Below are positions 124 through 13,850 of a DNA stretch of 43,538 nt, one piece after another (position 1 is the first letter of the stretch; every line of letters starts with the position of its first letter). The notes below the pieces were generated by a model, which worked only from the letters and a program-made list of their open reading frames with translations, had not been told where the DNA came from and did not search any database. This DNA is from a virus. Its lineage: Duplodnaviria > Caudoviricetes. Made by a program: the position numbers and the translations under genes. The stretch is from positions 1 to 43,538 of IMG/VR virus record IMGVR_UViG_3300032266_000559; one strand, written 5' to 3'.

Positions 124-2910
124 GTGTTCCGCCAGTCGACGACACCAACGGCCGGCGGCATCGGCGACGTGTGGTTCAACACCTCGAACAGCAACAAGCC
201 CTACGCATGGGACGGCACGAGCTGGGTCCTCGTCGATGACCAGCAGATCGCAGCCGTGGCGACCGTCGCCGGCCGCGTCAGGGTGTTTCGCCAGGCCAGC
301 GCGCCGAGCGCCGGCGGCGTGGGTGATGTCTGGTACAACACCGGCGACAGCAATCGCCCCTATGTGTGGGACGGGTCGAGCTGGGTGATCTCGGACGACA
401 CCCGGATCGCGACCGCTCAGGCGGCGATCACCAGCGAGGCGTCGACCCGCGCCACCGCCGACAGCGCGATGGCGTCGCAAATCACCAGCCTGACGGCGAA
501 CCTGACGACGACACAGGCGCAGCTCGCCGACACCGGCCCGATCGAGGCGGTCGTCACCTGGAATTTCAACAACACGGCGGACGGCTGGACGACAAACGGC
601 GCGGTGACAACGGCCACCGTTCAGGCCTCGGCGCTGCGGCTTTCGTCGACCGGCGACATGATCATCTATTCGCCGACAATTTCGATTGATGGATCAAAAG
701 AGTTCTTGGTTCAGGCGCGCGTGACCCGCGTGGCTGGCGCGGGATGGGATGGCACGGTTCTGCATTTCACCGCCGGCCACGGCGAAAGCGCCTCATACTA
801 CAAAAACCTAGCCAATCCCGGCCTGACGGCCGGCCAGTCGGCAATCCTAACCTGGGATATGTCGGCTCTAACGGTCGGCGGCGCCGATTGGATTAGCAAC
901 ACGATCACCAAGATCCGCCTCGACCTCGGCTCGACCAGTGCCGACGTGTTCGATGTCGATTGGGTGGCGATCGGCCACCGCGGCCCCGGAAACTACAACG
1001 TCAGCATCGCCGCCGCGAACGCCGCGATCACGACCGAGCAGACCGCGCGCGTCAACGGTGACAGCGCGAACGCGACCTCGATCACCAATCTGACGACCTC
1101 GTTCAACACCTACAAGACCAGCAACGACGCGGCCCTCGGCACCACAAACAGCAACCTCGGCGCGCTGACGACCCGCGTGACCAGCGCCGAAAGCGCGATC
1201 ACAACCGAGGCCTCGACCAGGTCGTCGGCAGACAGCACCAATGCGACCGCGATCTCGACGCTCAACAGCTCGTTCACCAGCTATCAGACCACGGCGAACG
1301 GCCGTCTCGGCGCCCTCGAGAGCACCACGGGCTCGCTCGGCACCAGGATGACGGCGGCCGAAACGAACATCACAAATGAGGCCTCGACCCGCGCATCGGC
1401 TGACACCGCCGAGGCGTCGACCCGATCGGCGCTCGGCGCAAGCGTCCAAACCCAAATCACAAACCTGGGCTCGGGCACCGCTCAGCAGGTTTTCAAGCAA
1501 GGTTCAGCGCCGACGGTCGATCAGGTCTGCCCGCCCGGCAAAAACCGCTTGAACCAATCGTCTTTTGTTGACGGCGTTTTCAACTATTGGAAGATCACCA
1601 CAACTTACACGGGCAGTTCTGATCGTGGCCTGTTCGCCACAACCGACACCTGGACACCGCCGGGCGCTCGAAACGTTTTCGTTCACCTTGCAGGCACTCC
1701 TGCAAGCGGAACATATATGGGTCTGTATAATGATGGTTTGGACGGGTCGCCCCGCTATGCGGTGACGGCTGGCCAGAAATACGAATTTTCGGCCTACCTG
1801 GCCAACCATCGACTGCAGGGCGTCACGGCAAGGATCGTCTGGTTTAACGCGACCCCAACTTATCTGGGAACGTCGTCCTCGACGACGGTCACGACACAAG
1901 GCGGCGGCAGCGGCAACAAACTCAGCACTTTCGAGCGGGTTTTCGTCATTGCAACCGCTCCGGCCGGTGCGACGCAATGCTATCTCGTCGTCGACGGCAC
2001 CGCCAACGGCACGGCTGATCCCTACATCATGCTGGTCAAGCCGTTCTTCGGCCTTGCCGAGCCCGACCAGACCGTGCCCTCGCCATGGGTCGACGCCAAC
2101 ACCGGCGCGATCTGGTTGAACACGTCCGACAACTACCGGATGTCGGTCTGGAACGGGCTCGCGTGGGAGCTGCGCGACGATCAGCGCATTGCCGTTAACG
2201 CCGCCGCCATCACATCCGAGGCCAGCACCAGGGCCACGGCCGACAGCGCCAATGCCTCGGCGATCACGTCGCTGACGACAACCGTCAACGGCAACACCGC
2301 CTCGATCACCAGCCAGCAGACGTCGATCAACGGCCTGTCGGCGCTCAAGACGCTGACCGTCAACGCCGGCGGCGCCATCGCCGGCTATTCAATCTATGCG
2401 GGCGGCGGTTCCTCCACCTTCCGCATTCAGGCCGAAAATTTCGAGGTGATAGGCTCGGGCGGCTCTGGCGCCGCACCGTTCCGCGTCTCCGGCGGCGTGA
2501 CCTACATCAACGAAGCGCGGATCGCCAACGGTGCCGTGTCCGAGGTCACGGCCGGGATGGCCGCGGGCTATGTCGATCTTGCCGTGACGGTCGAGGCCGG
2601 CGCGAAATTGGTTTTCATCCTGAGCACACTTGGCGGCAATCTCCAGCCAGCCATGGAGCTTTACGACCTGACGGGTGGCGCCAGCGTCGTCAACATCGCG
2701 CCGTCGTCCTATTCGTTCAGCCTCTGGGTCTCGACCGGACCAGATAGCGGCTACTATGCCACGCAATACATCTACCAGCCGACGACTTACCAGTGGGTGT
2801 TGACGCCCAGTTATACTGGCTATCGAGCGTTCCGACTGCGCAATAACACCGGCAATCTGACGTCGGGCTATGCAACCGTCATCATGACCATCATGCAGCT
2901 CAAGAAGTGA
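1..2910 (+). CDS. Long tail fibre / host-specificity protein, 3' part (continues from 42975 across the junction; ~1116 aa in total)
   Basis: Repeated TEASTRATADSA coiled-coil motifs, xVFRQ..P..GDVWFNT..WDG.SW modules and CBM-like domains; in frame with the GTG at 42975. Confidence 0.85.
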   Translation, partial: RATADSANASSISSLSSSFTSYQTSNNSAVSAAATAASRIRVFRQSTTPTAGGIGDVWFNTSNSNKPYAWDGTSWVLVDDQQIAAVATVAGRVRVFRQASAPSAGGVGDVWYNTGDSNRPYVWDGSSWVISDDTRIATAQAAITSEASTRATADSAMASQITSLTANLTTTQAQLADTGPIEAVVTWNFNNTADGWTTNGAVTTATVQASALRLSSTGDMIIYSPTISIDGSKEFLVQARVTRVAGAGWDGTVLHFTAGHGESASYYKNLANPGLTAGQSAILTWDMSALTVGGADWISNTITKIRLDLGSTSADVFDVDWVAIGHRGPGNYNVSIAAANAAITTEQTARVNGDSANATSITNLTTSFNTYKTSNDAALGTTNSNLGALTTRVTSAESAITTEASTRSSADSTNATAISTLNSSFTSYQTTANGRLGALESTTGSLGTRMTAAETNITNEASTRASADTAEASTRSALGASVQTQITNLGSGTAQQVFKQGSAPTVDQVCPPGKNRLNQSSFVDGVFNYWKITTTYTGSSDRGLFATTDTWTPPGARNVFVHLAGTPASGTYMGLYNDGLDGSPRYAVTAGQKYEFSAYLANHRLQGVTARIVWFNATPTYLGTSSSTTVTTQGGGSGNKLSTFERVFVIATAPAGATQCYLVVDGTANGTADPYIMLVKPFFGLAEPDQTVPSPWVDANTGAIWLNTSDNYRMSVWNGLAWELRDDQRIAVNAAAITSEASTRATADSANASAITSLTTTVNGNTASITSQQTSINGLSALKTLTVNAGGAIAGYSIYAGGGSSTFRIQAENFEVIGSGGSGAAPFRVSGGVTYINEARIANGAVSEVTAGMAAGYVDLAVTVEAGAKLVFILSTLGGNLQPAMELYDLTGGASVVNIAPSSYSFSLWVSTGPDSGYYATQYIYQPTTYQWVLTPSYTGYRAFRLRNNTGNLTSGYATVIMTIMQLKK

Positions 2911-2914
2911 CGCC

Positions 2915-3166
2915 ATGATCCCGCCAACCGAAAGCGGCCATTCCGACTATGCGGTGTTCGATCCCGACAACGGGATCGTGCGCCAGGTCGGCACCTATCC
3001 CGACTCCATGCTGGCGGCGCTGATCGTCAGCGGCTCGCCGATCCTGCCGATCAAAGCGCAGATCGGCGATCGCATCGACCTGGCGACCGGCGAGATCGTG
3101 CCGCCGGCCGCCGGCGTCACCCTGGGCGACCGGGTGTTTCACGGGCCGGTCCAGCCGCCCGCCTGA
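2915..3166 (+). CDS. Small tail-fibre-associated protein (83 aa)
   Basis: Starts 4 nt after the fibre stop; position typical of a fibre chaperone. Confidence 0.55.
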   Translation: MIPPTESGHSDYAVFDPDNGIVRQVGTYPDSMLAALIVSGSPILPIKAQIGDRIDLATGEIVPPAAGVTLGDRVFHGPVQPPA

Positions 3167-3192
3167 CGCCCGCCCGAACCTGAACCCGTCGC

Positions 3193-3216
3193 AGCCCGCT
3201 TGAGCGGGCTTTTTTT
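3193..3216 (+). terminator. Intrinsic terminator between tail and lysis genes
   Basis: AGCCCGC-TTGA-GCGGGCT followed by T6. Confidence 0.8.
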
Positions 3217-3234
3217 ATGGCCGGAGCCGATCCC

Positions 3235-4026
3235 ATGTCGACCATCACGACTGCCATGCTGCGCGAGATTGCGCCGGGCGCCGACCCGAAACTGCTCGCC
3301 ACCCTCGCGCCGGCGCTCGCCACGACGCTGGCGGCCAACGGCATCGACACGCCGCTGCGCCAGGCGCATTTCATCGCGCAGGCGGCGCACGAGACGGGTG
3401 GATTCCACACGCTCGAAGAATATGGCGGGCCGAGCTACTTCGCCCGCTATGACGGCCGGAAGGACCTCTGCAACGTCCGCTCGGGCGACGGCGCGCGGTT
3501 TCACGGCCGCGGGATTTTCCAGCTTACCGGCCGCGTGAACTACGAGGCCTACGGCAAGCGCCTCGGCATCGACCTGGTCAACAACCCGGCGCTGGCGGCG
3601 TCGCCGGCCATTTCGGTCCGGATCGCCGCGGCGTTCTGGACGGCGAAGGGCCTGAACGCCTGGGCCGACCGCGATGACGTGGTCGAGATCACGCGCCGGA
3701 TCAATGGCGGCCGCAACGGCCTCGCCGAGCGCCGGCGCTACCTCACCGCCGCAAAGGCGCAGCTTGGCGTCCTGGCGCCGCTCGGCCTTGTCTTGGCCGC
3801 GGACCAGCCGGCACCGGCAGAGGACATTCCCGACGCGCCGATCGCCGCCGACCCGACCAAACGCTGGTTCGAGTCCGACACCGTCCGCGGCTCGCTGCTG
3901 TCGGCAATCCCGGGCCTGCTGGCGGCCGTGCAGTCGCCCTGGGGCCTCGCCGCCCTGTTCGCCATCCCGATCGCCGTCGGGACCGGGATCGTGATCTACA
4001 AGCGGCTGACGCGGGACCCGGTCTGA
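3235..4026 (+). CDS. GH19 (chitinase-like) endolysin with hydrophobic C-terminal extension
   Basis: AHETGGF..E and GDGARFHGRGIFQLTGRVNY motifs, ITRRINGG; GGAG RBS before the ATG at 3235. Confidence 0.9.
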   Translation: MSTITTAMLREIAPGADPKLLATLAPALATTLAANGIDTPLRQAHFIAQAAHETGGFHTLEEYGGPSYFARYDGRKDLCNVRSGDGARFHGRGIFQLTGRVNYEAYGKRLGIDLVNNPALAASPAISVRIAAAFWTAKGLNAWADRDDVVEITRRINGGRNGLAERRRYLTAAKAQLGVLAPLGLVLAADQPAPAEDIPDAPIAADPTKRWFESDTVRGSLLSAIPGLLAAVQSPWGLAALFAIPIAVGTGIVIYKRLTRDPV

Positions 4027-4412
4027 TGCCGTTCCTCTCGCTGCTGGTCTCGCCGATCGGCCGCTGGGCCGCGGCCCTCCTCTTCGCCATGACGTTGATC
4101 GGCGCCGCCTACCTCAAGGGCCGCGCCGATCGTGCGGCCCTCGACGAGAGCGCAGCCCTGCGCGCCAGCAACGCCGCGCTGGTCGAGCAGCTCGACAGCA
4201 CCCGCAAGGTCGCCGACGCCGCCAACGCCCGCGCCGAGCGCGCCGCGGCCGACCAGGCCGCCACGACGGAAAGGATCGCCGACTATGAAACCGCCCTGGC
4301 CCGCCGTCCGAACGGCGCTTGCGCTCTCAGCCCTGATGATGCTCGCCGGCTGCTCGGCATCGGTGACGGACCGCAAGCCGACCCTGCCGGCGGCGCCCGC
4401 CGGGTTCGGTGA
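4026..4412 (+). CDS. Inner-membrane spanin (Rz-like)
   Basis: N-terminal TM helix, Ala-rich coiled coil and C-terminal Cys, directly after the endolysin. Confidence 0.7.
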   Translation: MPFLSLLVSPIGRWAAALLFAMTLIGAAYLKGRADRAALDESAALRASNAALVEQLDSTRKVADAANARAERAAADQAATTERIADYETALARRPNGACALSPDDARRLLGIGDGPQADPAGGARRVR

Positions 4413-4566
4413 ACCGGTGCCGGTTCCAACGCCGCGAGCCGGCCAGGACGCCCGCGCTGTGGCCGCGAGGGCCTATGGGGCGCTGCGCCAGGCCAACGGC
4501 CGCCTGGTGGCCGACCGCGCGTTCTATGACGACGTCCGCACTCGTTTCTCGGAGCCGCCCCGATGA
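4285..4566 (+). CDS. Outer-membrane lipoprotein spanin (Rz1-like), overlapping the Rz-like gene
   Basis: MKPPWPAVRTALALSALMMLAG-C lipobox, Pro-rich mature part, different frame within the Rz-like gene. Confidence 0.7.
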   Translation: MKPPWPAVRTALALSALMMLAGCSASVTDRKPTLPAAPAGFGEPVPVPTPRAGQDARAVAARAYGALRQANGRLVADRAFYDDVRTRFSEPPR

Positions 4567-4889
4567 CGCCGCTCGACATGATTTTCGGCCTCGGGATGGC
4601 CATCCTCGCCGCCGGCAATGTGTGGGCCGTCCGCGCCGCCAATGAAGCGGCGGCGGACAGAAAGGCCATGCGAGCCGAGCTGCAGGAGCTGCGCAACGCG
4701 CGTGCGGAGGATCGGCTCGACGCCGCAAAGACCTACGTCGCGCGCGAGCATCTCGAAGCACTCGACGAGCGGATCGTCCGAACCGAGGAGCGGCTCCTCG
4801 CCGAGTTCCGCGAGTTCCGGACCTCGATCACCGCAGCCCTGTCGACCCTCGCCGTCGGTCGGCGGGCTCAACCGCGTCAAGGTGAATGA
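4563..4889 (+). CDS. Membrane protein, possible holin/antiholin
   Basis: N-terminal TM helix plus coiled coil, in the lysis cassette, ATGA overlap. Confidence 0.5.
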   Translation: MTPLDMIFGLGMAILAAGNVWAVRAANEAAADRKAMRAELQELRNARAEDRLDAAKTYVAREHLEALDERIVRTEERLLAEFREFRTSITAALSTLAVGRRAQPRQGE

Positions 4890-6221
4890 ATGGCTCGTTC
4901 CTCACTGAAGTGGCCCGCCGAGATCCGCGCGGCCGTGCTGGCGGCGCTGGCCGCCGGCGAGCGGCCGTCGCATGTCGCTCAGCGGCTTGGCGTGGGCGCC
5001 GGCACGGTGCGGCGCTACAAGCTCGAAGCGACCCGCGCCGGCCTCGCCGCCGCCCTGGCGCCGCAAGGCGCCGGCAAGCCCGCCTCCGGCGCCGCAAAGG
5101 ACCCGCCACCGCCGCCGATGGCGCCTGCGGCCGAGGTCCGCCTGCGCGACGAGCTGGCGCGCGCCCGGCGCGAGCGCGACGAGGCGCTGCGCACGGCCAA
5201 TCGCGACGAGGACATGCGGCGCGAGCTATGGCGCCTGGCGCCGATTCCCGCGCCGGTCCTCTTCACCCGGCCACCGGCGAGCGACCCGCGCGCCGAAACC
5301 GTCGTCGTGTTCGCCTCCGACTGGCATTTCGGCGACCGCATCGACCTCGAAAAGATGGACGGCCTCAACAGCTATACGGCCGCGATCGCCCAGGCGCGCG
5401 CCGGCCGGCTGTTTTCGACGGTGGCCGACCTGACAACCCGCCATTGGGCCGGCCCGGCGCCCGCGCGGCTGATCATCATCCTCGGCGGCGACATGATCAG
5501 CGGCGAGATCCACGAGGAGCTGGACAAGGCCAACGAGTTGCGCTCGATCGACGCCGCGCAGCATTGCGCGTCGTCCATCATGGGCGGCCTGACATGCCTC
5601 CTCGAGGCGCTGCCGGGCGTCCCGATCGAGGTCATAACCTTGCCAGGGAACCATGGCAGGACGACCCGCAAGCCGCAGTCCAAGTTCGTGAACGACTCCT
5701 ACGACGTCCACATCAGCAACATCGTCGAGGCCCATTTCGCCGCGACCAAGGAACGCCGGATCAAATTTTGGGCGCCGGTGTCGGGCGACGCCGTGTTCTC
5801 GGTCGACGGCTGGGTCGTCCTGGCCACCCATGGCGACCGGATCGGCAGCAGGGGAGGGCAGGGGTTCGTTGGCCCGGCGGCCACGGCCGCGCGCGGGTTC
5901 AAGCGCCTCGTCGCGGACTATGCCACGCGCGGCACGATCGTCGACCTGGTGCTGTGCGGCCACTTCCACACGCCGCTGCGCCTTGAGGAGGGCTACGTCT
6001 GCGGCACGCTGGCCGGGCCAAGCGAGTACGCCCGCGACGGCAGGTTCAGGCCGCACCCGGCGAGCCAGCTGTTCCTCGCGATTCATCCGAGGCGTGGCGT
6101 CACTCAGGTCCGCGAGATCTCCGTCGGCGCGCCCGACGAGGGCTCGATCTACCAGGGCCGCGAGGACCGCGGCACGCTGCGCCCGCGCTACCGCGTGCCG
6201 GCCATCAGCGTCCCGCGCTGA
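4890..6221 (+). CDS. HTH-fused calcineurin-like metallophosphoesterase
   Basis: N-terminal HTH; SDWH, GGD, GNHG, HGD and GHFH motifs. Confidence 0.85.
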   Translation: MARSSLKWPAEIRAAVLAALAAGERPSHVAQRLGVGAGTVRRYKLEATRAGLAAALAPQGAGKPASGAAKDPPPPPMAPAAEVRLRDELARARRERDEALRTANRDEDMRRELWRLAPIPAPVLFTRPPASDPRAETVVVFASDWHFGDRIDLEKMDGLNSYTAAIAQARAGRLFSTVADLTTRHWAGPAPARLIIILGGDMISGEIHEELDKANELRSIDAAQHCASSIMGGLTCLLEALPGVPIEVITLPGNHGRTTRKPQSKFVNDSYDVHISNIVEAHFAATKERRIKFWAPVSGDAVFSVDGWVVLATHGDRIGSRGGQGFVGPAATAARGFKRLVADYATRGTIVDLVLCGHFHTPLRLEEGYVCGTLAGPSEYARDGRFRPHPASQLFLAIHPRRGVTQVREISVGAPDEGSIYQGREDRGTLRPRYRVPAISVPR

Positions 6222-6392
6222 CCGTTGCCGCCGGCCGCTACGATGACCCGCTCGAACCGAGGGCGGCATAGTAGCGGCCGACCGTTGACCGTTGACGCTT
6301 AACTTTTCCGACTTTCCAACCAAGGCCCTCCCAAGGCGGGCCGCCGATAGTTGGAAAGAAACACCCTTGACATCAACACCGGAGCCCGACCG

Positions 6393-6719
6393 ATGACTGT
6401 CCGCAAGCCGCGCCAGCCCGAAACCGCCGCCGATCTGCTCGATGCTGCTGCCGTCGTCGTCGGCCAGCGCGAGGGCCAACACGGCGGCAAGTCCGCGAAC
6501 CATGCCGCAATCGCCGCCGTGTGGAATGGCATTCTTGAGGCTCGCGCGATCAACGGCCACGGGTCCCTCGCGCTGCAGGGGTCCGACGTCGCGAACCTGA
6601 TGGAAGGATTGAAAATCGCGCGGCGCTATTCGGGCGGGTTCAACGCCGACGATTATCTCGACGGCGCCGGCTATGCGGCCTGCGCCTACGAGGTCCGCAA
6701 GGGCGAGGTCGAAAGCTGA
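6393..6719 (+). CDS. DUF6378-like phage protein
   Basis: R..QHG...IA..W...KIAR...DDYLDGAGYAAC pattern; GGAG RBS. Confidence 0.7.
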   Translation: MTVRKPRQPETAADLLDAAAVVVGQREGQHGGKSANHAAIAAVWNGILEARAINGHGSLALQGSDVANLMEGLKIARRYSGGFNADDYLDGAGYAACAYEVRKGEVES

Positions 6720-6948
6720 TCCTCGGCGGTTAGATACAACCGCCGGAGGTTGTATCTACCGCCTCCCGGCGGTCAATTTCGGTTTGCCACTGGCAAAAAT
6801 TCTCTTTGGGAATCAACGGCGGAACTTGTGACCGTTTGCCACGTCAACCCTTTGGCATTGTTGCGTTTATCGTTAAGGCTTCGTTAAACTGGGCCTTGTG
6901 ATTTCAACGGGTTATAGGCCAAGTTTGCCAAGGTTTGCCAACCGGCGT
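6720..6948. other. Putative attP region
   Basis: AT-richer intergenic region at the integrase 3' end; GTTTGCCA x4 (6782, 6834, 6923, 6933) plus inverted TGGCAAA (6791) as arm-type sites; IHF-like TTTCAAcgggTTA at 6902. Confidence 0.6.
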
Positions 6949-7962
6949 TCACGTCTCGTCCAATTCGCGCTTCGCCATGGCTGATCGCGCAAGGCGTTTT
7001 TGGTCCGCCGACCGGGTGTAATGCGTCACCATCGCCGGCGTCCGATGACCGGTGATGGACATGATCTCGCGGTCGCTGCAGCCGGCCTCGGCCAACGCCG
7101 CCGCGGCCGACTTCCGCAAGCCGTGCAGCACGCAACCATCCGGCAAGCCCGCGTCGTCGATCGCCCGGGCGAACCAATCGCCCAGCCCGTTCGACGTAAA
7201 CGGTCGGCCGCTCGGCTGATGCAGGATCATGACGGCCTGGCGCTCGACGCCAACGAGCTCGACGCTAAGGGCCGAATGCTCGGGCACGGCCAGCGCCTCG
7301 CCCGTCTTTTCCTGCACCACATGAATCAGCCCGTCGCGGCGGGCGTGCCATGTCATCGCGGCGAGGTCGCCCCGACGCTGGCCGGTATAAAGCGCCAGCA
7401 AAAAGCAGCGCCGCTCCATGGAGCCAGCAGGCCAGCGCGCCAGAAATGCCGCGTGCTCGGCAATCGTCCAGGCGCGATGCTCGCCAAGCCGGAATCGTTT
7501 CAGTCCGCGCGCCGGATTGTCCTGGCGATACGAGCGGTCGACCGCGAACGCCATCAGCACGGCGACGACAGACAGCACCAGATTCGCCCAGCCTGGCCGG
7601 TCGGCCAGCTCGGCGTTCGTGTTCTGCAAATGCTTACGGGTGACTTGCGCGACGGGCAGCGCCGCGCCCGGCCTCGCGCCGAGGAAGTCGATCACGCGCA
7701 TGTAAAGCTTGCGCGACTTCGGCTTGAGGCTGTGGAATTCCGGCGAGCCCTGATACTCGGCCATCAGGGCCGCCATCGTTCCAGCCGCGTGGCGGGGCGT
7801 ATGTGGCCGATCGTCGGCGGCTGCGCGGTAGGCGTCCAGAAACGCACCCATGCCATCAGCCGGGTCTGGGAGCGGTTTGCGGGTGCCGCCGCGGCGGTAA
7901 TAGAAGCGAACCCGGCCGTGTCGGTCCCGGAATCGGTGGACATATGGCAGCGGTGTTTTCAC
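6949..7962 (-). CDS. int: Tyrosine recombinase (integrase)
   Basis: TGQRRGD, HGLRK, TGH and HYT catalytic R-H-R-H-Y residues; N-terminal arm-binding-like RDRHGRVRFYYR. Confidence 0.95.
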   Translation of the reverse strand: MKTPLPYVHRFRDRHGRVRFYYRRGGTRKPLPDPADGMGAFLDAYRAAADDRPHTPRHAAGTMAALMAEYQGSPEFHSLKPKSRKLYMRVIDFLGARPGAALPVAQVTRKHLQNTNAELADRPGWANLVLSVVAVLMAFAVDRSYRQDNPARGLKRFRLGEHRAWTIAEHAAFLARWPAGSMERRCFLLALYTGQRRGDLAAMTWHARRDGLIHVVQEKTGEALAVPEHSALSVELVGVERQAVMILHQPSGRPFTSNGLGDWFARAIDDAGLPDGCVLHGLRKSAAAALAEAGCSDREIMSITGHRTPAMVTHYTRSADQKRLARSAMAKRELDET

Positions 7963-8195
7963 AAGCGGTCCGCGATTGCGATCTGCGCAGGATCTGTGGC
8001 GTATCGCAGATCCTTGAATGCATCCCGCAGATCGTCAACGTCCCAGATGCGGCACCCGTCGATTGCGCGCGGCGGCGGCATCCGCCCGGCGGCCACGAGC
8101 TCGCGAAACTTGGACGGCGACACGCCGACAGACGCCGCGGCTTCCGGCTCGCGCAGTCCGAACACGATCGGCACAGCCACGGCGCGGCGTGTCAT
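7959..8195 (-). CDS. Excisionase / AlpA-like HTH protein
   Basis: EAAASVGVSPSKFRELVAAGRMPPP..WDVDDL; overlaps the int start. Confidence 0.8.
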   Translation of the reverse strand: MTRRAVAVPIVFGLREPEAAASVGVSPSKFRELVAAGRMPPPRAIDGCRIWDVDDLRDAFKDLRYATDPAQIAIADRL

Positions 8196-8668
8196 GTCAG
8201 CACTCCTCGCCAACTCCGGGGCAACGCTCGCTCAAGCCAAACGAGCGCCTCGCTCCGCCGACCGCACGTCAACTCCGCCGTGGCAATATCCAATTCCTGA
8301 AAATCGATTGTATCGTCGTTGATTATCTGCCGGATGGCGCAGATATCTTTCGGCGTTAGTTTGCGGTCCTTGAGTTCGGCGATGATTTCAGCCGTGCTAA
8401 ACTCATCAAGATCGATATCGACATCAACGTCGACGCAGACGCTTGTGCTTCTCGACACCATCTCACCGCTCCTTGTCATTTTGCCGTCAACCTCAAGCGT
8501 CAGCCGGTTGGCCACGCTGAACCACACGGCCACCCGCTCGTCGCCCTTGTAGATCGCGAACCACCAGCGATTGCGGTCCATGCGCTCCATGTGAAAGCTC
8601 ACACCCTCGGCAACGATCTCGTCGAGCTTGCCGTCCTGCCGGCGGATTTCGAAGGTGGGCTCGGTCAT
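8192..8668 (-). CDS. Hypothetical early protein (158 aa)
   Basis: 4-nt overlaps with both neighbours; start re-assigned to MTEPTF. Confidence 0.6.
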   Translation of the reverse strand: MTEPTFEIRRQDGKLDEIVAEGVSFHMERMDRNRWWFAIYKGDERVAVWFSVANRLTLEVDGKMTRSGEMVSRSTSVCVDVDVDIDLDEFSTAEIIAELKDRKLTPKDICAIRQIINDDTIDFQELDIATAELTCGRRSEALVWLERALPRSWRGVLT

Positions 8669-8904
8669 GGCGCGCGATCCTCGGTCGGCACAAGCATGTC
8701 GGCGATCCGTCGCGCCAGTTCCCAGGCGCCAGCATCGCGGCAATGACCCGACACCCTGAACGATTTCAGCACCGGAACCTTGGATGGGCCGGGATCGGTC
8801 AAGGTGTCGACCTCGTAGTCTGACACGGCGGCGAGGTCGGAAACGTTGCGGGCTTTCGCGAGCGCGATCGTGCGGCTGTTGATCTCGATCCTGATCGTCA
8901 TCAT
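8665..8904 (-). CDS. Hypothetical early protein (79 aa)
   Basis: Coupled stop/start overlaps in the operon. Confidence 0.65.
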   Translation of the reverse strand: MMTIRIEINSRTIALAKARNVSDLAAVSDYEVDTLTDPGPSKVPVLKSFRVSGHCRDAGAWELARRIADMLVPTEDRAP

Positions 8905-9146
8905 GGCTCGCCGTCCAAATCCCTGCGAGCTGCATCGCGGGCGATCACGAGCGGCTCATATCGCCCCGTCGTAAACGCGGCATCCCAGCGCCGCAGCGCC
9001 CTCTCCATCTGCGCGATCCGCTCGGCCTGCTGGTCGAGGAGGTCGGCGGCTTTACCGAGAATCCAATCGCCCCACGGATCGCCAAGTCTGTTGAGCTTGC
9101 CATCACGCTTTTCTCGTAGCGCGCGCGTCATGTCGCCGTGGTCCAT
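8901..9146 (-). CDS. Hypothetical early protein (81 aa, MDHGDM...)
   Basis: TGATG/ATGA coupling; the longer ORF call runs into the repeat array. Confidence 0.6.
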   Translation of the reverse strand: MDHGDMTRALREKRDGKLNRLGDPWGDWILGKAADLLDQQAERIAQMERALRRWDAAFTTGRYEPLVIARDAARRDLDGEP

Positions 9147-9352
9147 CACAGCAGCCTCCCTGCTTGATCGGCCGCGGCGGCGAGCAGGCGATAGTCGTCC
9201 GCGATCGCGGCCATGACGCCGATCTGAAAGTCGGCATCGGCCTGCTTCATCCGGCCGTCTGCCACGCGCGTCGCGTAAACGCGGCGGCGGAAACCAAGCT
9301 CCCGCTCGGTCGCCTTGAGCTTCTCCCTGGCCGTGAAAGTGAGAGTAGTCAT
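9146..9352 (-). CDS. Small phage early protein (68 aa)
   Basis: ERELGFRRRVY..RVADGRM motif that I recognise from phage ORFs; GGAGG RBS at the end of the array. Confidence 0.7.
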   Translation of the reverse strand: MTTLTFTAREKLKATERELGFRRRVYATRVADGRMKQADADFQIGVMAAIADDYRLLAAAADQAGRLL

Positions 9353-9361
9353 CGGTCCTGC

Positions 9362-9861
9362 GCCTCCCGTGCCTTGCCCTGCTCATCCGTGCCTTGTCGT
9401 GCCGAGCCTGCCTTGCCGCGCCATGCCTCGCCGGGCCTCGTCTGGCCAATCCGAGCCTTGCCTGCTTTGCCATGCCATGCACCGCCCCGCCGTTCCGAGC
9501 CGTGCCCCGCCTGCCTTGCCATGCGCCGCCAGGCCATGCCTGACCTCGCCATGCCGAGCCCCGCCTGCCGCGCCAGGCCGTGCCGTGCCCCGCCTCGCCT
9601 TGCCCGGCCGGGCCTTGCCTGCCGTGCCGGGCCTTGCCCGGCCGCGCCACGCCTAGCCTCGCCTGCCTTGCCGAGCCCAGTCCGGCCTAGCCTTGCCCCG
9701 CCTGCCGCGCTGTGCCCAGCCTTGCCCTTCCAAACCGTGCCTTGCCACGCCTTGCCTGCTTTGCGATGCCTTGCCCCGCCGCTCCGAGCCGCGCCGAGCC
9801 AAGCTCTGCCGCGCCGTGCCTGCTTTGCCCCGCCATGTACGGCGAAACACCGCCGCGCATC
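9362..9861 (-). ncRNA. GGC-NN pentamer array, predicted multi-guide ncRNA (VIPR-like), 10 units
   Basis: ~92 in-register pentamers (plus strand gccNN) punctuated by 4-nt gcct at 9362, 9406, 9460, 9509, 9563, 9617, 9661, 9700, 9754 and 9818; downstream of a RAMP-like gene. The repeat is certain; the RNA function is inferred. Confidence 0.8.
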
Positions 9862-9912
9862 GCGTTGTGGCCCGATGCGACCGAGTGGCCGTCGTCGCAC
9901 CGGGCCGCCGCC

Positions 9913-10374
9913 TCACCCTGCAGCCAGCATCAAGCCCGCCCGCAGGCGTTTCTCGATGCCGTCGAGCTGGTGGGTGATCTTGTCGAGTTCCGGAGCCGCG
10001 CAGCGGGCCAGCATGGACCGCGCCTGCCGGATCGTTTGCGCCGTCAGGAGCCGCCGGCGCGCTTCGTCGCCAATGACCTCGTCGGCGCGCGTGTATCCGC
10101 CACCATTCCTGCGCGACTCCGGTTCGCTCACATAGACAGGCGCGATGACCGCCTGCCCGTCGGTTCGCGGCAGAACCTCGACCACGACCCGGATGATTTT
10201 GCGGGCCTGTTCCAGCCGGTAAAGCTCGCCCGCCTTGCTGTCGTCCCATTCAAACCGAGAGTGCAAAACGGTGTTCTCGGACCGAGCGAATGCGACGACG
10301 TCAGCAGGGTCAAGCGCGCCTGCCGGATGCGCCTGACGGATCATTTCCAGTTCGGATTTGATCGCCTCGGACAT
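9913..10374 (-). CDS. Accessory protein of the RAMP/array locus (153 aa)
   Basis: Start MSEAIK 1 nt after the RAMP-like stop; LHSRFEWDDSKAGELYRLEQARKIIR motif. Confidence 0.8.
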   Translation of the reverse strand: MSEAIKSELEMIRQAHPAGALDPADVVAFARSENTVLHSRFEWDDSKAGELYRLEQARKIIRVVVEVLPRTDGQAVIAPVYVSEPESRRNGGGYTRADEVIGDEARRRLLTAQTIRQARSMLARCAAPELDKITHQLDGIEKRLRAGLMLAAG

Positions 10375-10375
10375 T

Positions 10376-11047
10376 TCAGCCTTCCGTCGCCAGACGGAAC
10401 AGACCAAAGCCCAGCCCAGCCGATGCCCGGCTGTCGGGCCGGCCTTCGCCGATCCCCACTTGCTGGCCTGCGCGCTGCAGCAGGTTCGTCGCGTCCTGGA
10501 TCGAGAACTGGTCGAGGTCGAACCGGACGCGGACATTCGCCGACCACTCCCGCCACAACGGCCGGACGTGAACGTCGACGACGCCGGTCGCATTGCGGAC
10601 GTGCGCGTCGAACCGTTCCCACGCGCCATGGATCGCGACGAGCGGCGTGCCTTCCTGATAGTCAAACCCGTCGGCCTCGACGAACACCGACAACTTGGCC
10701 AGCGTCATCTTGTAACCGACCAGGCGACAGGCCGAGATCATCGCGTTGCGGAACGCCGCGGCCGGAATCCCCGGCGCGTCAGGCTCGTGTGGTGCGCCTT
10801 TCTTTCCGAGGATGTGCATGGCGTTGCGGCAATCCTCGTCGAAGTCGCGCGCCTCGCGGACCTTTTTCGACCGCGCCTGCGAGCCGCTGGCCATCTTGTC
10901 CATCATCATCTGCTTGGCTTTGTGGCTGAACCGGCTCTGGCAGTACGGCGCGGTCCCGATGATCTGGAATTCACAGGTCTGAAACCGCGGCGCCGGGATC
11001 GTCACCATCTTGGATGGCGCCTTGTTCTTCGTGATCGTGTCGAGCAT
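10376..11047 (-). CDS. Cas7/RAMP-like protein (Vipr-like, 223 aa)
   Basis: FQIIGTAP first strand, GIPAAAFRNAMISAC (cf. Cas7/Csm3 IPgsslKGalR), C-terminal Gly-rich loop GIGEGRP...GLGFGLF; GAGAGGGA RBS. Confidence 0.78.
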   Translation of the reverse strand: MLDTITKNKAPSKMVTIPAPRFQTCEFQIIGTAPYCQSRFSHKAKQMMMDKMASGSQARSKKVREARDFDEDCRNAMHILGKKGAPHEPDAPGIPAAAFRNAMISACRLVGYKMTLAKLSVFVEADGFDYQEGTPLVAIHGAWERFDAHVRNATGVVDVHVRPLWREWSANVRVRFDLDQFSIQDATNLLQRAGQQVGIGEGRPDSRASAGLGFGLFRLATEG

Positions 11048-12479: not shown

Positions 12480-13217
12480 ATGGCCCGGCGACTTTTGATC
12501 CTTGCCATCGTTCAGTGTTGGGCGGCGGCGGTGTCCAGCACGGCCGCGGTGGCGCTCGAACCGATCGTCGCCGGCCGCGAGGGCCTTTATGCGTGCGACA
12601 ACATCGTTCAGATGAAAACGTTCATGGTCGAGCTGTTCTTTGGCGGCAAGTCCGATGATCTGAAATGTTCCAGCATTCCAGCCGGAACCCGCATCCTCGG
12701 CGACAATGTCCGACGGGTGAACGGTTTCATCAGCGGCGATGGTGTCGCCAACAGCTTCCGGAACGGCGTGGCGTTTGCGTTCTTCGGGATTGCGGAACCG
12801 CAGCAGTCACCCGCCGCCGCGGCGCCGCCGGCCGCCGCGCCGCCCGCACCGCCGCCTGTCTATGTCCCGCCGCCGCCTCGCGTGTTCAAGGTGATCAGTC
12901 CGAGCGACGTGCGGGCGACGCCCGACAAATGGCAGGGGCGCGATATCGAATTCCGCAACGTCAACGTGTATTGGGTCGACGATGATGATATTCGGATCAC
13001 GACGAGCGATAGTCTCACCGTTTTTGTAAAACGGGTCCGCGGCGGCGGTCAGTTGAAAGACAAATGCGAGACCGTCAAAGATGCCGTTTCCTCGAAATGT
13101 CGGGCGACGGTTCGTTTTTCCTATCAGGCCTATGATGTCGACCAGCCGTCGGGGCTGGCAAAGCGCACCGTGCTGGTGACGAACGACGCGGAATTGATTG
13201 TCGGGCGCGGCAAATAA
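12480..13217 (+). CDS. Exported accessory (moron-like) protein in the immunity region
   Basis: Signal peptide, Pro-rich linker, two domains; GAGGAG RBS; convergent with cI. Confidence 0.75.
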   Translation: MARRLLILAIVQCWAAAVSSTAAVALEPIVAGREGLYACDNIVQMKTFMVELFFGGKSDDLKCSSIPAGTRILGDNVRRVNGFISGDGVANSFRNGVAFAFFGIAEPQQSPAAAAPPAAAPPAPPPVYVPPPPRVFKVISPSDVRATPDKWQGRDIEFRNVNVYWVDDDDIRITTSDSLTVFVKRVRGGGQLKDKCETVKDAVSSKCRATVRFSYQAYDVDQPSGLAKRTVLVTNDAELIVGRGK

Positions 13218-13220
13218 TCG

Positions 13221-13814
13221 TCACAGATCGAATAGCACGCGCCGCACTCGACCGATCGCCTTGACGGGGCCTCTCGGAAAGATGTCCTCAAAACCCGGGT
13301 CGGTGCTGTCCGCCGTCAGCCTGGGCGGCGCATCGCGGTAGCGTTTCAACGTCGCGCCGACGTCGGTCTCGAACACATAGATGCCGCGATCGACCAGCGT
13401 TCGCTCCGAGATGTCGACGAACACAATCGAGCCGTGAGGCGCCACCCGGTTCATGGATTCGCCGCCAACACGCGCGGCGACGAACACGCCCGGCGGCAGG
13501 CTGGCGGCTCGAATGCGTGGCAGATCCGACAGGCGTTCGACGGTTTCCAGCTCGGCCCATGGCCCAGCCGATATCGACTGAATAAGCGGGACCTCGCGCA
13601 CGCCCGCATCGCCAGGTGTGTCGAGCAGATCGTCCGCGCTCAGGCCAAGCAAATCGGCCAGCACTTTCCACCGGTGTCCTTTGGGGACGTGCTTGCCGAT
13701 CTCCCATTGGGTGACCGTGACACGGCTGACGCCCATGGCTGTCGCGACCTGGGCTTGCGTCAAGGCGCGAGCCTCGCGGGCTATTCTGATCCGCTTTCCG
13801 ATCTCGCCCGTCAT
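13221..13814 (-). CDS. cI: CI-like repressor (HTH + S24 peptidase)
   Basis: LTQAQVA..MGVSRVTVTQWE HTH; GESM and TLKR Ser/Lys dyad; AG cleavage site. Confidence 0.93.
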   Translation of the reverse strand: MTGEIGKRIRIAREARALTQAQVATAMGVSRVTVTQWEIGKHVPKGHRWKVLADLLGLSADDLLDTPGDAGVREVPLIQSISAGPWAELETVERLSDLPRIRAASLPPGVFVAARVGGESMNRVAPHGSIVFVDISERTLVDRGIYVFETDVGATLKRYRDAPPRLTADSTDPGFEDIFPRGPVKAIGRVRRVLFDL

Positions 13815-13850
13815 GGCCCGACCGTGCAAGGTTGCACTTAACACGGCAAC

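What the first reader, a model, noticed from the sequence alone, without database searches (positions are those of the whole stretch)
9460..9512. Unit 8 decodes to the patatin catalytic motif GTSTGGII
If every third target base is skipped, U8 reads GGn ACn TCn ACn GGn GGn ATn ATn = G-T-S-T-G-G-I-I, treating the terminal AA as the shared end mark (ATn may also be Met). GTSTGGII(A) is the canonical GxSxG nucleophile elbow of patatin-like phospholipases, a family that includes CBASS CapV-type effectors. No patatin is encoded here. Inference: the guide skips wobble positions to hit a conserved motif regardless of synonymous change, and may silence a host anti-phage effector. Other units also read as plausible peptides (U7 GS[IM][DE][HQ][IM]LG[IM]; U5 [DE]YVAR[NK]PT; U9 [KN]S[FL][HQ][DE]P[DE][IM]A) that I cannot assign. 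Caveat: found post hoc among 10 units x 2 orientations.
Basis: inference. Interest (0 to 1): 0.85.

Follow-up and report, generated by a model that had tools for sequence, protein, structure and literature searches.

The report
Phage guide RNA aimed at CBASS
A temperate phage carries a VIPR guide-RNA array in which one unit, read two bases out of every three, matches the catalytic-serine codons of phospholipase genes in bacterial CBASS anti-phage operons, so the phage likely uses RNA-guided gene silencing to switch off this host defence.

Summary
9460-9512 is unit 8 of a staggered VIPR vrRNA array (minus strand) behind vipr and vap in a temperate phage of probable Rhizobiales host. Under the published 1-nt-skip code its first eight dinucleotides read G-T-S-T-G-G-[IM]-[IM]; the terminal AA is unmatched and sits at a position biased in the whole family.

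In 401 Rhizobiales genomes the pattern has 9 exact hits (reversed control 0). All are patatins in codon phase, and 8 lie in CBASS operons. It matches exactly 8 of 17 cyclase-linked patatins and 0 of 45 others in the HMM set, and ties for the most widely shared gapped site in those 17 loci. Six of the eight operons have capP, the DNA-damage inducer. Unit 9 matches the start of a prophage gene under the same code.

VIPR, wobble skipping and active-site targeting are published; a target in host immunity was not found in the library searched. Binding and silencing are untested and the real host is unknown. Rivals exist: 22 of the 45 other patatins match 15/16, and 62 of 75 patatin hits on viral contigs show no cyclase nearby.

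The parts
9460..9512 (-). vrRNA unit 8: nine pentamers (9464-9508) between two A-GGC junctions; NN 1-8 decode to the patatin GTSTGG[IM][IM] codons
9360..9846 (-). Staggered vrRNA array: about 94 GGY/NN pentamers, 10 units separated by nine 4-nt A-GGC junctions (9406, 9460, 9509, 9563, 9617, 9661, 9700, 9754, 9818)
   Evidence: staggered architecture as described in fig. S18 of 10.64898/2026.04.26.720920
9406..9463 (-). vrRNA unit 9: first nine NN match the start-codon region of a conserved prophage gene (phrog_2300), wobble-phased, on the opposite strand
9563..9620 (-). vrRNA unit 6: its 8-NN core matches a prophage DNA-methyltransferase family in IMG/VR, but both flanking NN mismatch; unconfirmed
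9913..10374 (-). vap-like accessory gene, 153 aa (phrog_15946, unknown function; no Pfam family)
10376..11047 (-). vipr gene, 223 aa RAMP-fold protein with C-terminal glycine-rich loop
   Evidence: SUSP1 Vipr in PDB at E 0.0015 and E 9.9e-6 with a profile; model pLDDT 82.5 matches Csm/Cmr RAMP complexes
9810..9912 (-). Leader between vap and the array with two predicted hairpins; role unknown
   Evidence: z -1.93, weak
6949..7962 (-). Tyrosine integrase (temperate lifestyle; named relatives from Rhizobiales)
13221..13841 (-). cI-like repressor (HTH + peptidase S24), upstream of the leftward genes that include vipr

Best explanation
Unit 8 is a guide unit of a phage VIPR array whose dinucleotides match the catalytic-serine codons of CBASS phospholipase (CapV-type) genes, and it likely directs the Vipr filament to bind these genes and repress them, which would blunt the host's cell-suicide defence. 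Shown here: the VIPR locus, the decoded string, its exact codon-phased match to patatins, and its bias toward cyclase-linked ones in Rhizobiales. Taken from published VIPR work: one Vipr per pentamer, pairing of NN with a 1-nt target skip, no PAM, repression by binding. Inferred: the array is cut into single guides at A-GGC; the terminal NN does not specify the target; U8 pairs with the template strand about 35 codons behind the DGGGxRG motif; and the benefit is greatest during lysogeny or induction, because DNA damage both induces prophages and, through CapP/CapH, raises CBASS transcription.
For: VIPR identity; 71 related viral loci were found and staggered arrays were parsed beside many of them. 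Host order: 11 of 14 terminase relatives are named Rhizobiales prophages, 1 is an unclassified alphaproteobacterium, 2 are distant betaproteobacteria; the 4 named integrase relatives are Rhizobiales. Target: 9 of 401 genomes exact, control 0; 9 of 9 are patatins in codon phase; 8 of 9 lie beside a CD-NTase. The independent NF041079 search gave 62 patatins in 60 of the same 401 genomes: exact in 8 of 17 cyclase-linked and 0 of 45 others; Fisher p 7e-6, or 5e-5 counting L181. The 8 fall in four lineages only 38-47% identical, and the skipped bases vary. Skips 0, 2 and 3 reach only 10-13 of 16. capP lies beside 6 of 8 targets; CapP/CapH raise CBASS on DNA damage. Same code in this array: 19 of 47 IMG/VR hits of the U9 core are one prophage gene and all 19 also match the unsearched first NN; 5 of 201 Rhizobiales genomes, control 0, 4 in that gene.
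Against: No binding, expression or silencing data. The host strain is unknown, and none of 5 genomes with related prophages has the exact site. The exact site is in only about 2% of Rhizobiales genomes sampled, and 9 of 17 CBASS patatins escape with 11-15 of 16. 22 of 45 other patatins match 15 of 16, and one exact hit (L181) is a truncated patatin with no cyclase in view. Neighbours were checked for only 13 of those 45. On viral contigs 62 of 75 patatin hits have no cyclase within the fetched flanks. Only 16 bases specify the match, and the terminal NN mismatches (16/18). No second guide against this motif was found in 270 family units (best other 11/16), in IMG/VR (0 hits) or in JGI metagenomes (2 chance hits), for the sense orientation only. 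U2, U3, U5, U6 and U7 show nothing above control in Rhizobiales. capP frequency among unmatched CBASS operons was not measured. Repression cannot remove effector protein already made (inference).
Confidence: 0.65

Rival explanations
1. U8 is a real patatin-directed guide, but its natural target is a patatin outside CBASS: a stand-alone patatin on a competing phage or mobile element (ordinary VIPR inter-element warfare) or a chromosomal patatin of the host.
For: 62 of 75 exact patatin hits on viral contigs have no cyclase in the fetched flanks. L181 is an exact hit without a cyclase in view. 22 of 45 non-linked Rhizobiales patatins match 15/16. All published natural VIPR targets are mobile elements, other VIPR genes or REP decoys, and U9 hits a prophage gene.
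Against: In the probable host order 8 of 9 exact sites are CBASS. Among cultured phages, relatives of one stand-alone viral patatin occur only in 6 Wolbachia WO records and 1 uncultured phage, none from Rhizobiales. Hosts of the IMG/VR stand-alone patatins were not determined.
Confidence: 0.2
2. The patatin reading is a post hoc coincidence; U8's real target is some other, unsampled sequence that matches including the terminal AA.
For: Only 16 bases are matched; 11 of 86 IMG/VR hits are chance non-patatin sites. U6 shows that a 16-base core can converge on one redundant family (16 of 22 hits) without confirmation. By my rough estimate, the chance that one of 21 windows hits some conserved gene of any kind is of the order of a few percent.
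Against: U8 is one of only 12 top-shared patterns among 123,936; P 3.5e-9 per window, 7e-8 over 21 windows. That leaves about 1e-4 to 1e-3 after allowing 1,000-10,000 recognisable gene families (my estimate). None of the 86 viral or 9 bacterial exact sites continues with AA.
Confidence: 0.07
3. U8 was acquired against a CBASS patatin but is a relic or is ineffective: it is not processed, binds without silencing, or the locus is decaying.
For: A close relative has lost the array, vap and part of vipr (1,246-bp deletion in contigs of two runs). U8 has three non-canonical spacers of nine. One published test found 1 of 4 reprogrammed guides inactive.
Against: vipr and vap are intact here; published natural guides silence by binding inside coding sequences.
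Confidence: 0.08

Closest known systems
VIPR systems (Escherichia phage SUSP1 and Pseudomonas fulva prophage, type II; staggered arrays of fig. S18), 10.64898/2026.04.26.720920 and .720927
   Same: Vipr RAMP + vap + GGY/NN array; 1-nt skip falling on wobble positions; no self-target; at least one guide (U9) aimed at a prophage gene; staggered units overlapping by 1 nt.
   Different: No pseudoknot tail per unit as in SUSP1; VIPR type not assigned here. Published natural targets are satellites, prophages, other VIPRs and viruses; 'patatin' and 'CBASS' occur 0 times in the main text and the supplementary PDF. Data S3 (target lists) was not available.
SUSP1 vrRNA4 against the F5 satellite recombinase active site, 10.64898/2026.10.15.759431
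   Same: The guide reads codon positions 1-2 of catalytic-site codons, so synonymous change gives no escape.
   Different: The target there is a parasite's recombinase; here it is an anti-phage effector. 'patatin', 'CBASS' and 'phospholipase' occur 0 times in that main text.
CasPRs, phage proteins that silence cas genes (10.64898/2026.02.23.707548, abstract)
   Same: Prophage-encoded repression of an immune gene by binding inside its coding region.
   Different: Protein-only DNA recognition, directed at CRISPR-Cas; not RNA-guided and not CBASS.
Viral single-guide RNAs (10.64898/2026.06.01.729453, abstract) and phage-encoded CRISPR such as ICP1 type I-F (PMC11656645, passages)
   Same: Phage RNA guides used against host or resident defences.
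   Different: They borrow host Cas9 or use full CRISPR with contiguous pairing; their targets are the cas9 promoter or defensive elements, not CBASS.
Anti-CBASS proteins Acb1, Acb2, Acb4, Acb5, Tad1 (PMC13728456, passages)
   Same: Phage countermeasure to CBASS, including phospholipase-effector systems.
   Different: These cleave or sequester the cyclic-nucleotide signal; none of the passages seen describes RNA-guided silencing of CBASS genes.

Membership tests
VIPR | Vipr protein: RAMP fold with G-loop, homologous to SUSP1 Vipr | tested here: met
   SUSP1 Vipr is the only significant hit; invariant G-loop
VIPR | Adjacent array of alternating GGY/NN pentamers | tested here: met
VIPR | Minimal two-gene locus vipr + vap in a phage, no cas genes or CRISPR array | tested here: met
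   no cas family among the 38 ORFs scanned
VIPR | 1-nt-skip target code with the skip on wobble positions | tested here: met
   U8; U9: (computational only; a scan of relatives' guides against 0.73 Mb of held loci was uninformative)
VIPR | No self-targeting | tested here: met
   best skip-1 self matches of the units with 8 or more NN are 65-81% (U8 13/18)
VIPR | vrRNA expressed, processed and bound by Vipr; DNA binding and repression | not testable with these tools
   needs sRNA-seq, pull-down and reporter assays
VIPR type (I-VII) | Placement by Vipr phylogeny, vap family and array architecture | not tested
   reference sets (data S4) not available; the vap has no Pfam family
CBASS phospholipase (CapV-type) as target | Patatin motifs GGGxRG, GxSxG, DGG | tested here: met
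   8 of 8 CBASS targets have all three; motifs as defined in PMC9095652
CBASS phospholipase (CapV-type) as target | CD-NTase in the same locus | tested here: met
   8 of 9 exact Rhizobiales hits; 13 of 75 patatin hits on viral contigs
CBASS phospholipase (CapV-type) as target | Present in the phage's actual host | tested here: inconclusive
   host strain unknown; 0 of 5 genomes with related prophages have the exact site

The most novel reading that the evidence does not exclude
Phage VIPR arrays are programmable anti-defence weapons: a temperate phage has acquired one guide that locks onto the most widely shared codon block of CBASS phospholipase genes and silences diverged CBASS operons, preferentially the DNA-damage-inducible CapP/CapH ones, during lysogeny or induction. 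This would be the first RNA-guided, transcription-level anti-CBASS mechanism, and it would make decoded vrRNA arrays a readable record of which immune genes phages fight.
Probability: 0.55. Interest if true: 0.88.

Novelty: new variant of a known kind. Interest (0 to 1): 0.75.

Why it matters
The VIPR papers cast the system as a tool of conflict between mobile elements, or as host defence against viruses. A guide against a host immune effector adds a third role, counter-defence. The anti-CBASS factors in the review passages seen destroy or soak up the signal; this would act on transcription, and one guide of about 50 nt covers enzymes only about 40% identical because it reads the non-synonymous bases of the catalytic serine loop. 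It is directly testable with a two-gene plasmid and a CBASS operon. It also suggests that decoding unassigned vrRNAs could point to defence genes not yet recognised.

Tried and rejected
Self-targeting: none. Rfam: no match. The 4-repeat GGY run near 2078 lies inside the tail gene and was rejected as a vrRNA.

Other units, exact 8-NN cores in IMG/VR: U2 23 hits, U3 15, U7 20, scattered or small redundant clusters, none extending to a full match. In Rhizobiales: U7 1 of 191, U2 0 of 191, U3 20 hits against 30 control, U5 2 against 4, U6 12 against 11. U1, U4 and U10 were too short or were not searched in collections. No unit other than U8 matches the CBASS loci or their 8-20 kb surroundings. The U6 methyltransferase has a relative in 1 of 5 records that carry the U9 target, but the U6 site there is only 15/20 in another register, so it is left unconfirmed.

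Search for convergent anti-patatin guides: nothing; only the sense orientation of GTS[TI]GG was scanned in the collections. Relatives' guides against held loci at skips 0/1/2 gave chance-level hits (8, 5 and 10) and could not test the skip rule.

Sequencing runs: no RNA holder listed. Laying four runs on one CBASS patatin gave nothing in three and only short pieces in the fourth, which proves nothing. The NCBIfam CBASS_lipase cut-off does not separate CBASS from stand-alone patatins, so neighbours were used instead. The promoter scan gave one weak site at 13161 (chance mean 0.4).

Literature searches: VIPR/vrRNA with CBASS or phospholipase gave 0 papers; only four distinct VIPR papers are listed; two searches listed no RNA-guided anti-CBASS paper by title or abstract start. 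The library lacks most subscription journals.

Full report
Setting. The window is the whole record, a 43.5-kb temperate phage with integrase, cI-like repressor, primase, terminase, portal, capsid and contractile tail. Of 14 terminase relatives in GTDB genomes, 11 are named Rhizobiales, 1 is an unclassified alphaproteobacterium and 2 are distant betaproteobacteria. The four integrase relatives with an organism name are Methylobacterium, Kaistia, Hyphomicrobiaceae and Rhodoligotrophos. The host order is therefore inferred; the strain is unknown.

The locus. On the minus strand lie a 223-aa gene (10376-11047), a 153-aa gene (9913-10374) and an array of about 94 pentamers (9360-9846). The first protein's only significant PDB sequence match is SUSP1 Vipr (E 0.0015; profile E 9.9e-6), and its model (pLDDT 82.5) matches Csm/Cmr RAMP complexes. 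The array is GGY/NN, broken nine times by a 4-nt A-GGC into ten units. This is a VIPR system with a staggered array. The discovery paper (10.64898/2026.04.26.720920; I read parts 1-3 of 6, one methods section and passages, and searched the supplementary PDF; data S1-S4 were not available) reports the 1-nt-skip rule, wobble alignment, repression from either strand, no PAM and staggered arrays. The structure paper (.720927, parts 1-2 of 6) shows one Vipr per repeat. The competition paper (10.64898/2026.10.15.759431, parts 1-3 of 8 and passages; supplementary tables not seen) shows a guide on active-site codons of a satellite recombinase.

The observation. Unit 8 (9460-9512) has NN = GG AC TC AC GG GG AT AT AA, which is G T S T G G [IM] [IM] plus AA. 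The window has no patatin and no self-target. The last NN is biased across the family: AA, AT or AC in 73% of 270 unique units from 71 related loci plus the window. It is unmatched in the targets of both U8 and U9, so setting it aside is reasonable; the full match is 16/18, above the 80% threshold the authors use.

What it hits. In IMG/VR the 16-base pattern has 86 exact hits; 75 are patatins in codon phase (55 distinct contexts) and 11 are other sites; 13 of the 75 have a cyclase in the fetched flanks. In 401 genomes of the probable host order there are 9 exact hits, reversed control 0, against 0.7-0.9 expected. All 9 are patatins in codon phase, and 8 lie beside a CD-NTase with E2 or capP genes. 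The ninth, L181, is truncated and has no cyclase in view.

An independent set. NF041079 over the same 401 genomes gave 62 patatins in 60 genomes. Seventeen have a cyclase neighbour; their U8 scores are 16 (8 genes), 15 (1), 14 (4), 13 (1), 12 (2) and 11 (1). The other 45 score 15 (22), 14 (14), 13 (7) and 12 (2), none 16. Neighbours were examined for 13 of these 45; the other 32 were fetched with short flanks only. Fisher p is 7e-6, or 5e-5 with L181; the genes are not independent, but the eight exact ones form four lineages 38-47% identical, with varied skipped bases.

Chance. The 17 CBASS loci (65.9 kb) hold 123,936 distinct gapped 16-mers. The most widely shared occur in 8 loci, there are 12 of them, and U8 is one. 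P is 3.5e-9 per random window and 7e-8 for the array's 21 windows; allowing 1,000-10,000 families that a reader could have recognised leaves 1e-4 to 1e-3 (my estimate). None of 590 windows of 226 related units hits these loci. Only the native order of 1,680 permutations hits 8 loci, and skips 0, 2 and 3 give 10-13 of 16. Hitting some conserved gene of any kind is far likelier, a few percent by my rough estimate, so the weight lies in the rank and the defence context rather than in the mere match.

Internal control. Unit 9's 8-NN core has 47 IMG/VR hits; 19 are the start-codon region of one prophage gene (phrog_2300; five distinct contexts), and all 19 also match the unsearched first NN. In Rhizobiales 5 of 201 genomes hit with at most one mismatch, control 0, and 4 are this gene. 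The skips fall on wobble positions. This supports the code and the host order for this array. U2, U3, U5, U6 and U7 gave nothing above control in Rhizobiales; U6's methyltransferase family in IMG/VR (16 of 22 hits) is unconfirmed.

Context of the targets. In 8-20 kb around the eight operons I saw integrases, restriction-modification genes, AbiV, Gabija, Druantia and ArdC, or housekeeping genes, and no virion genes among the 72 ORFs scanned. They look like defence islands rather than prophages. Six of the eight have capP. CapP/CapH raise CBASS transcription on DNA damage, which also induces prophages (10.1101/2022.04.27.489752, passages). I did not measure capP among the unmatched operons, so this is a rationale and not an enrichment.

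Mechanism. Likely: early leftward transcription yields the array; units are cut at A-GGC; Vipr coats U8; the eight NN pair with the template strand over the nucleophile serine codons, 33-35 codons behind DGGGxRG (motifs as in PMC9095652, passages); the bound filament blocks transcription, with polarity on the cyclase where the patatin comes first (L176, L177). Every step after the sequence match is inferred from other VIPRs.

Against. No expression or binding data. The host's own CBASS is not seen. Half of the CBASS patatins escape, many non-CBASS patatins are one base off, and stand-alone viral patatins are common, although among cultured phages relatives of the one tested occur only in Wolbachia WO and one uncultured phage. 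No second anti-patatin guide was found. A close relative has deleted the system.

Novelty. 'Patatin' and 'CBASS' occur 0 times in the two VIPR papers searched for them and in the genomic-language-model paper (passages), and a library search for VIPR with CBASS or phospholipase gave 0 papers. The closest concepts are CasPRs and vsgRNAs (abstracts), phage CRISPRs (passages) and signal-destroying Acb proteins (passages). An unchecked AI note from this scan reports VIPR guides against Cap3 and BilC in another genome; it is a lead only. Verdict: a known system with a new class of target, well supported in sequence and untested at the bench. Interest 0.75.

Noticed in passing
window 9345-10592 (runs X2, X5): Contigs of a relative about 91% identical join 9345 to 10592 with 21 other letters between, deleting the array, vap and the 3' part of vipr: a VIPR-null relative, recalling the vipr-vap1 deletion in SUSP1-like phages. 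A contig in X4 has an intact-looking vipr and a diverged array.
   Followed up: no
window 9406-9463 (unit 9): Guide covers the start codon of phrog_2300, a conserved prophage gene of unknown function; a natural knock-down target that suggests the gene matters to the competing prophage.
   Followed up: partly
window 9700-9757 (unit 3): Decodes to [KN]V[KN]T[FL][RS][KN][CW]T, which recalls (from memory) the recognition helix of XRE-type HTH repressors; no hit above control was found.
   Followed up: partly
L001-L071 arrays: First NN is biased to GA/AA/AT and last NN to AA/AT/AC across 270 units; several units contain internal tandem duplications of NN blocks (L015, L061, L062), a possible trace of how guides are built.
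   Followed up: no
L072-L157: Many viral contigs carry stand-alone CapV-like patatins (phrog_25573, unknown function, for those tested) without a cyclase nearby; 13 viral contigs carry whole CBASS loci.
   Followed up: partly
window 9810-9912, minus strand: Two predicted hairpins between the vap stop codon and the first array unit; possible processing or leader element.
   Followed up: no
window 12480-13217: 245-aa gene with a proline-rich linker between the early genes and cI, on the opposite strand; no Pfam or PHROG match; moron-like.
   Followed up: no
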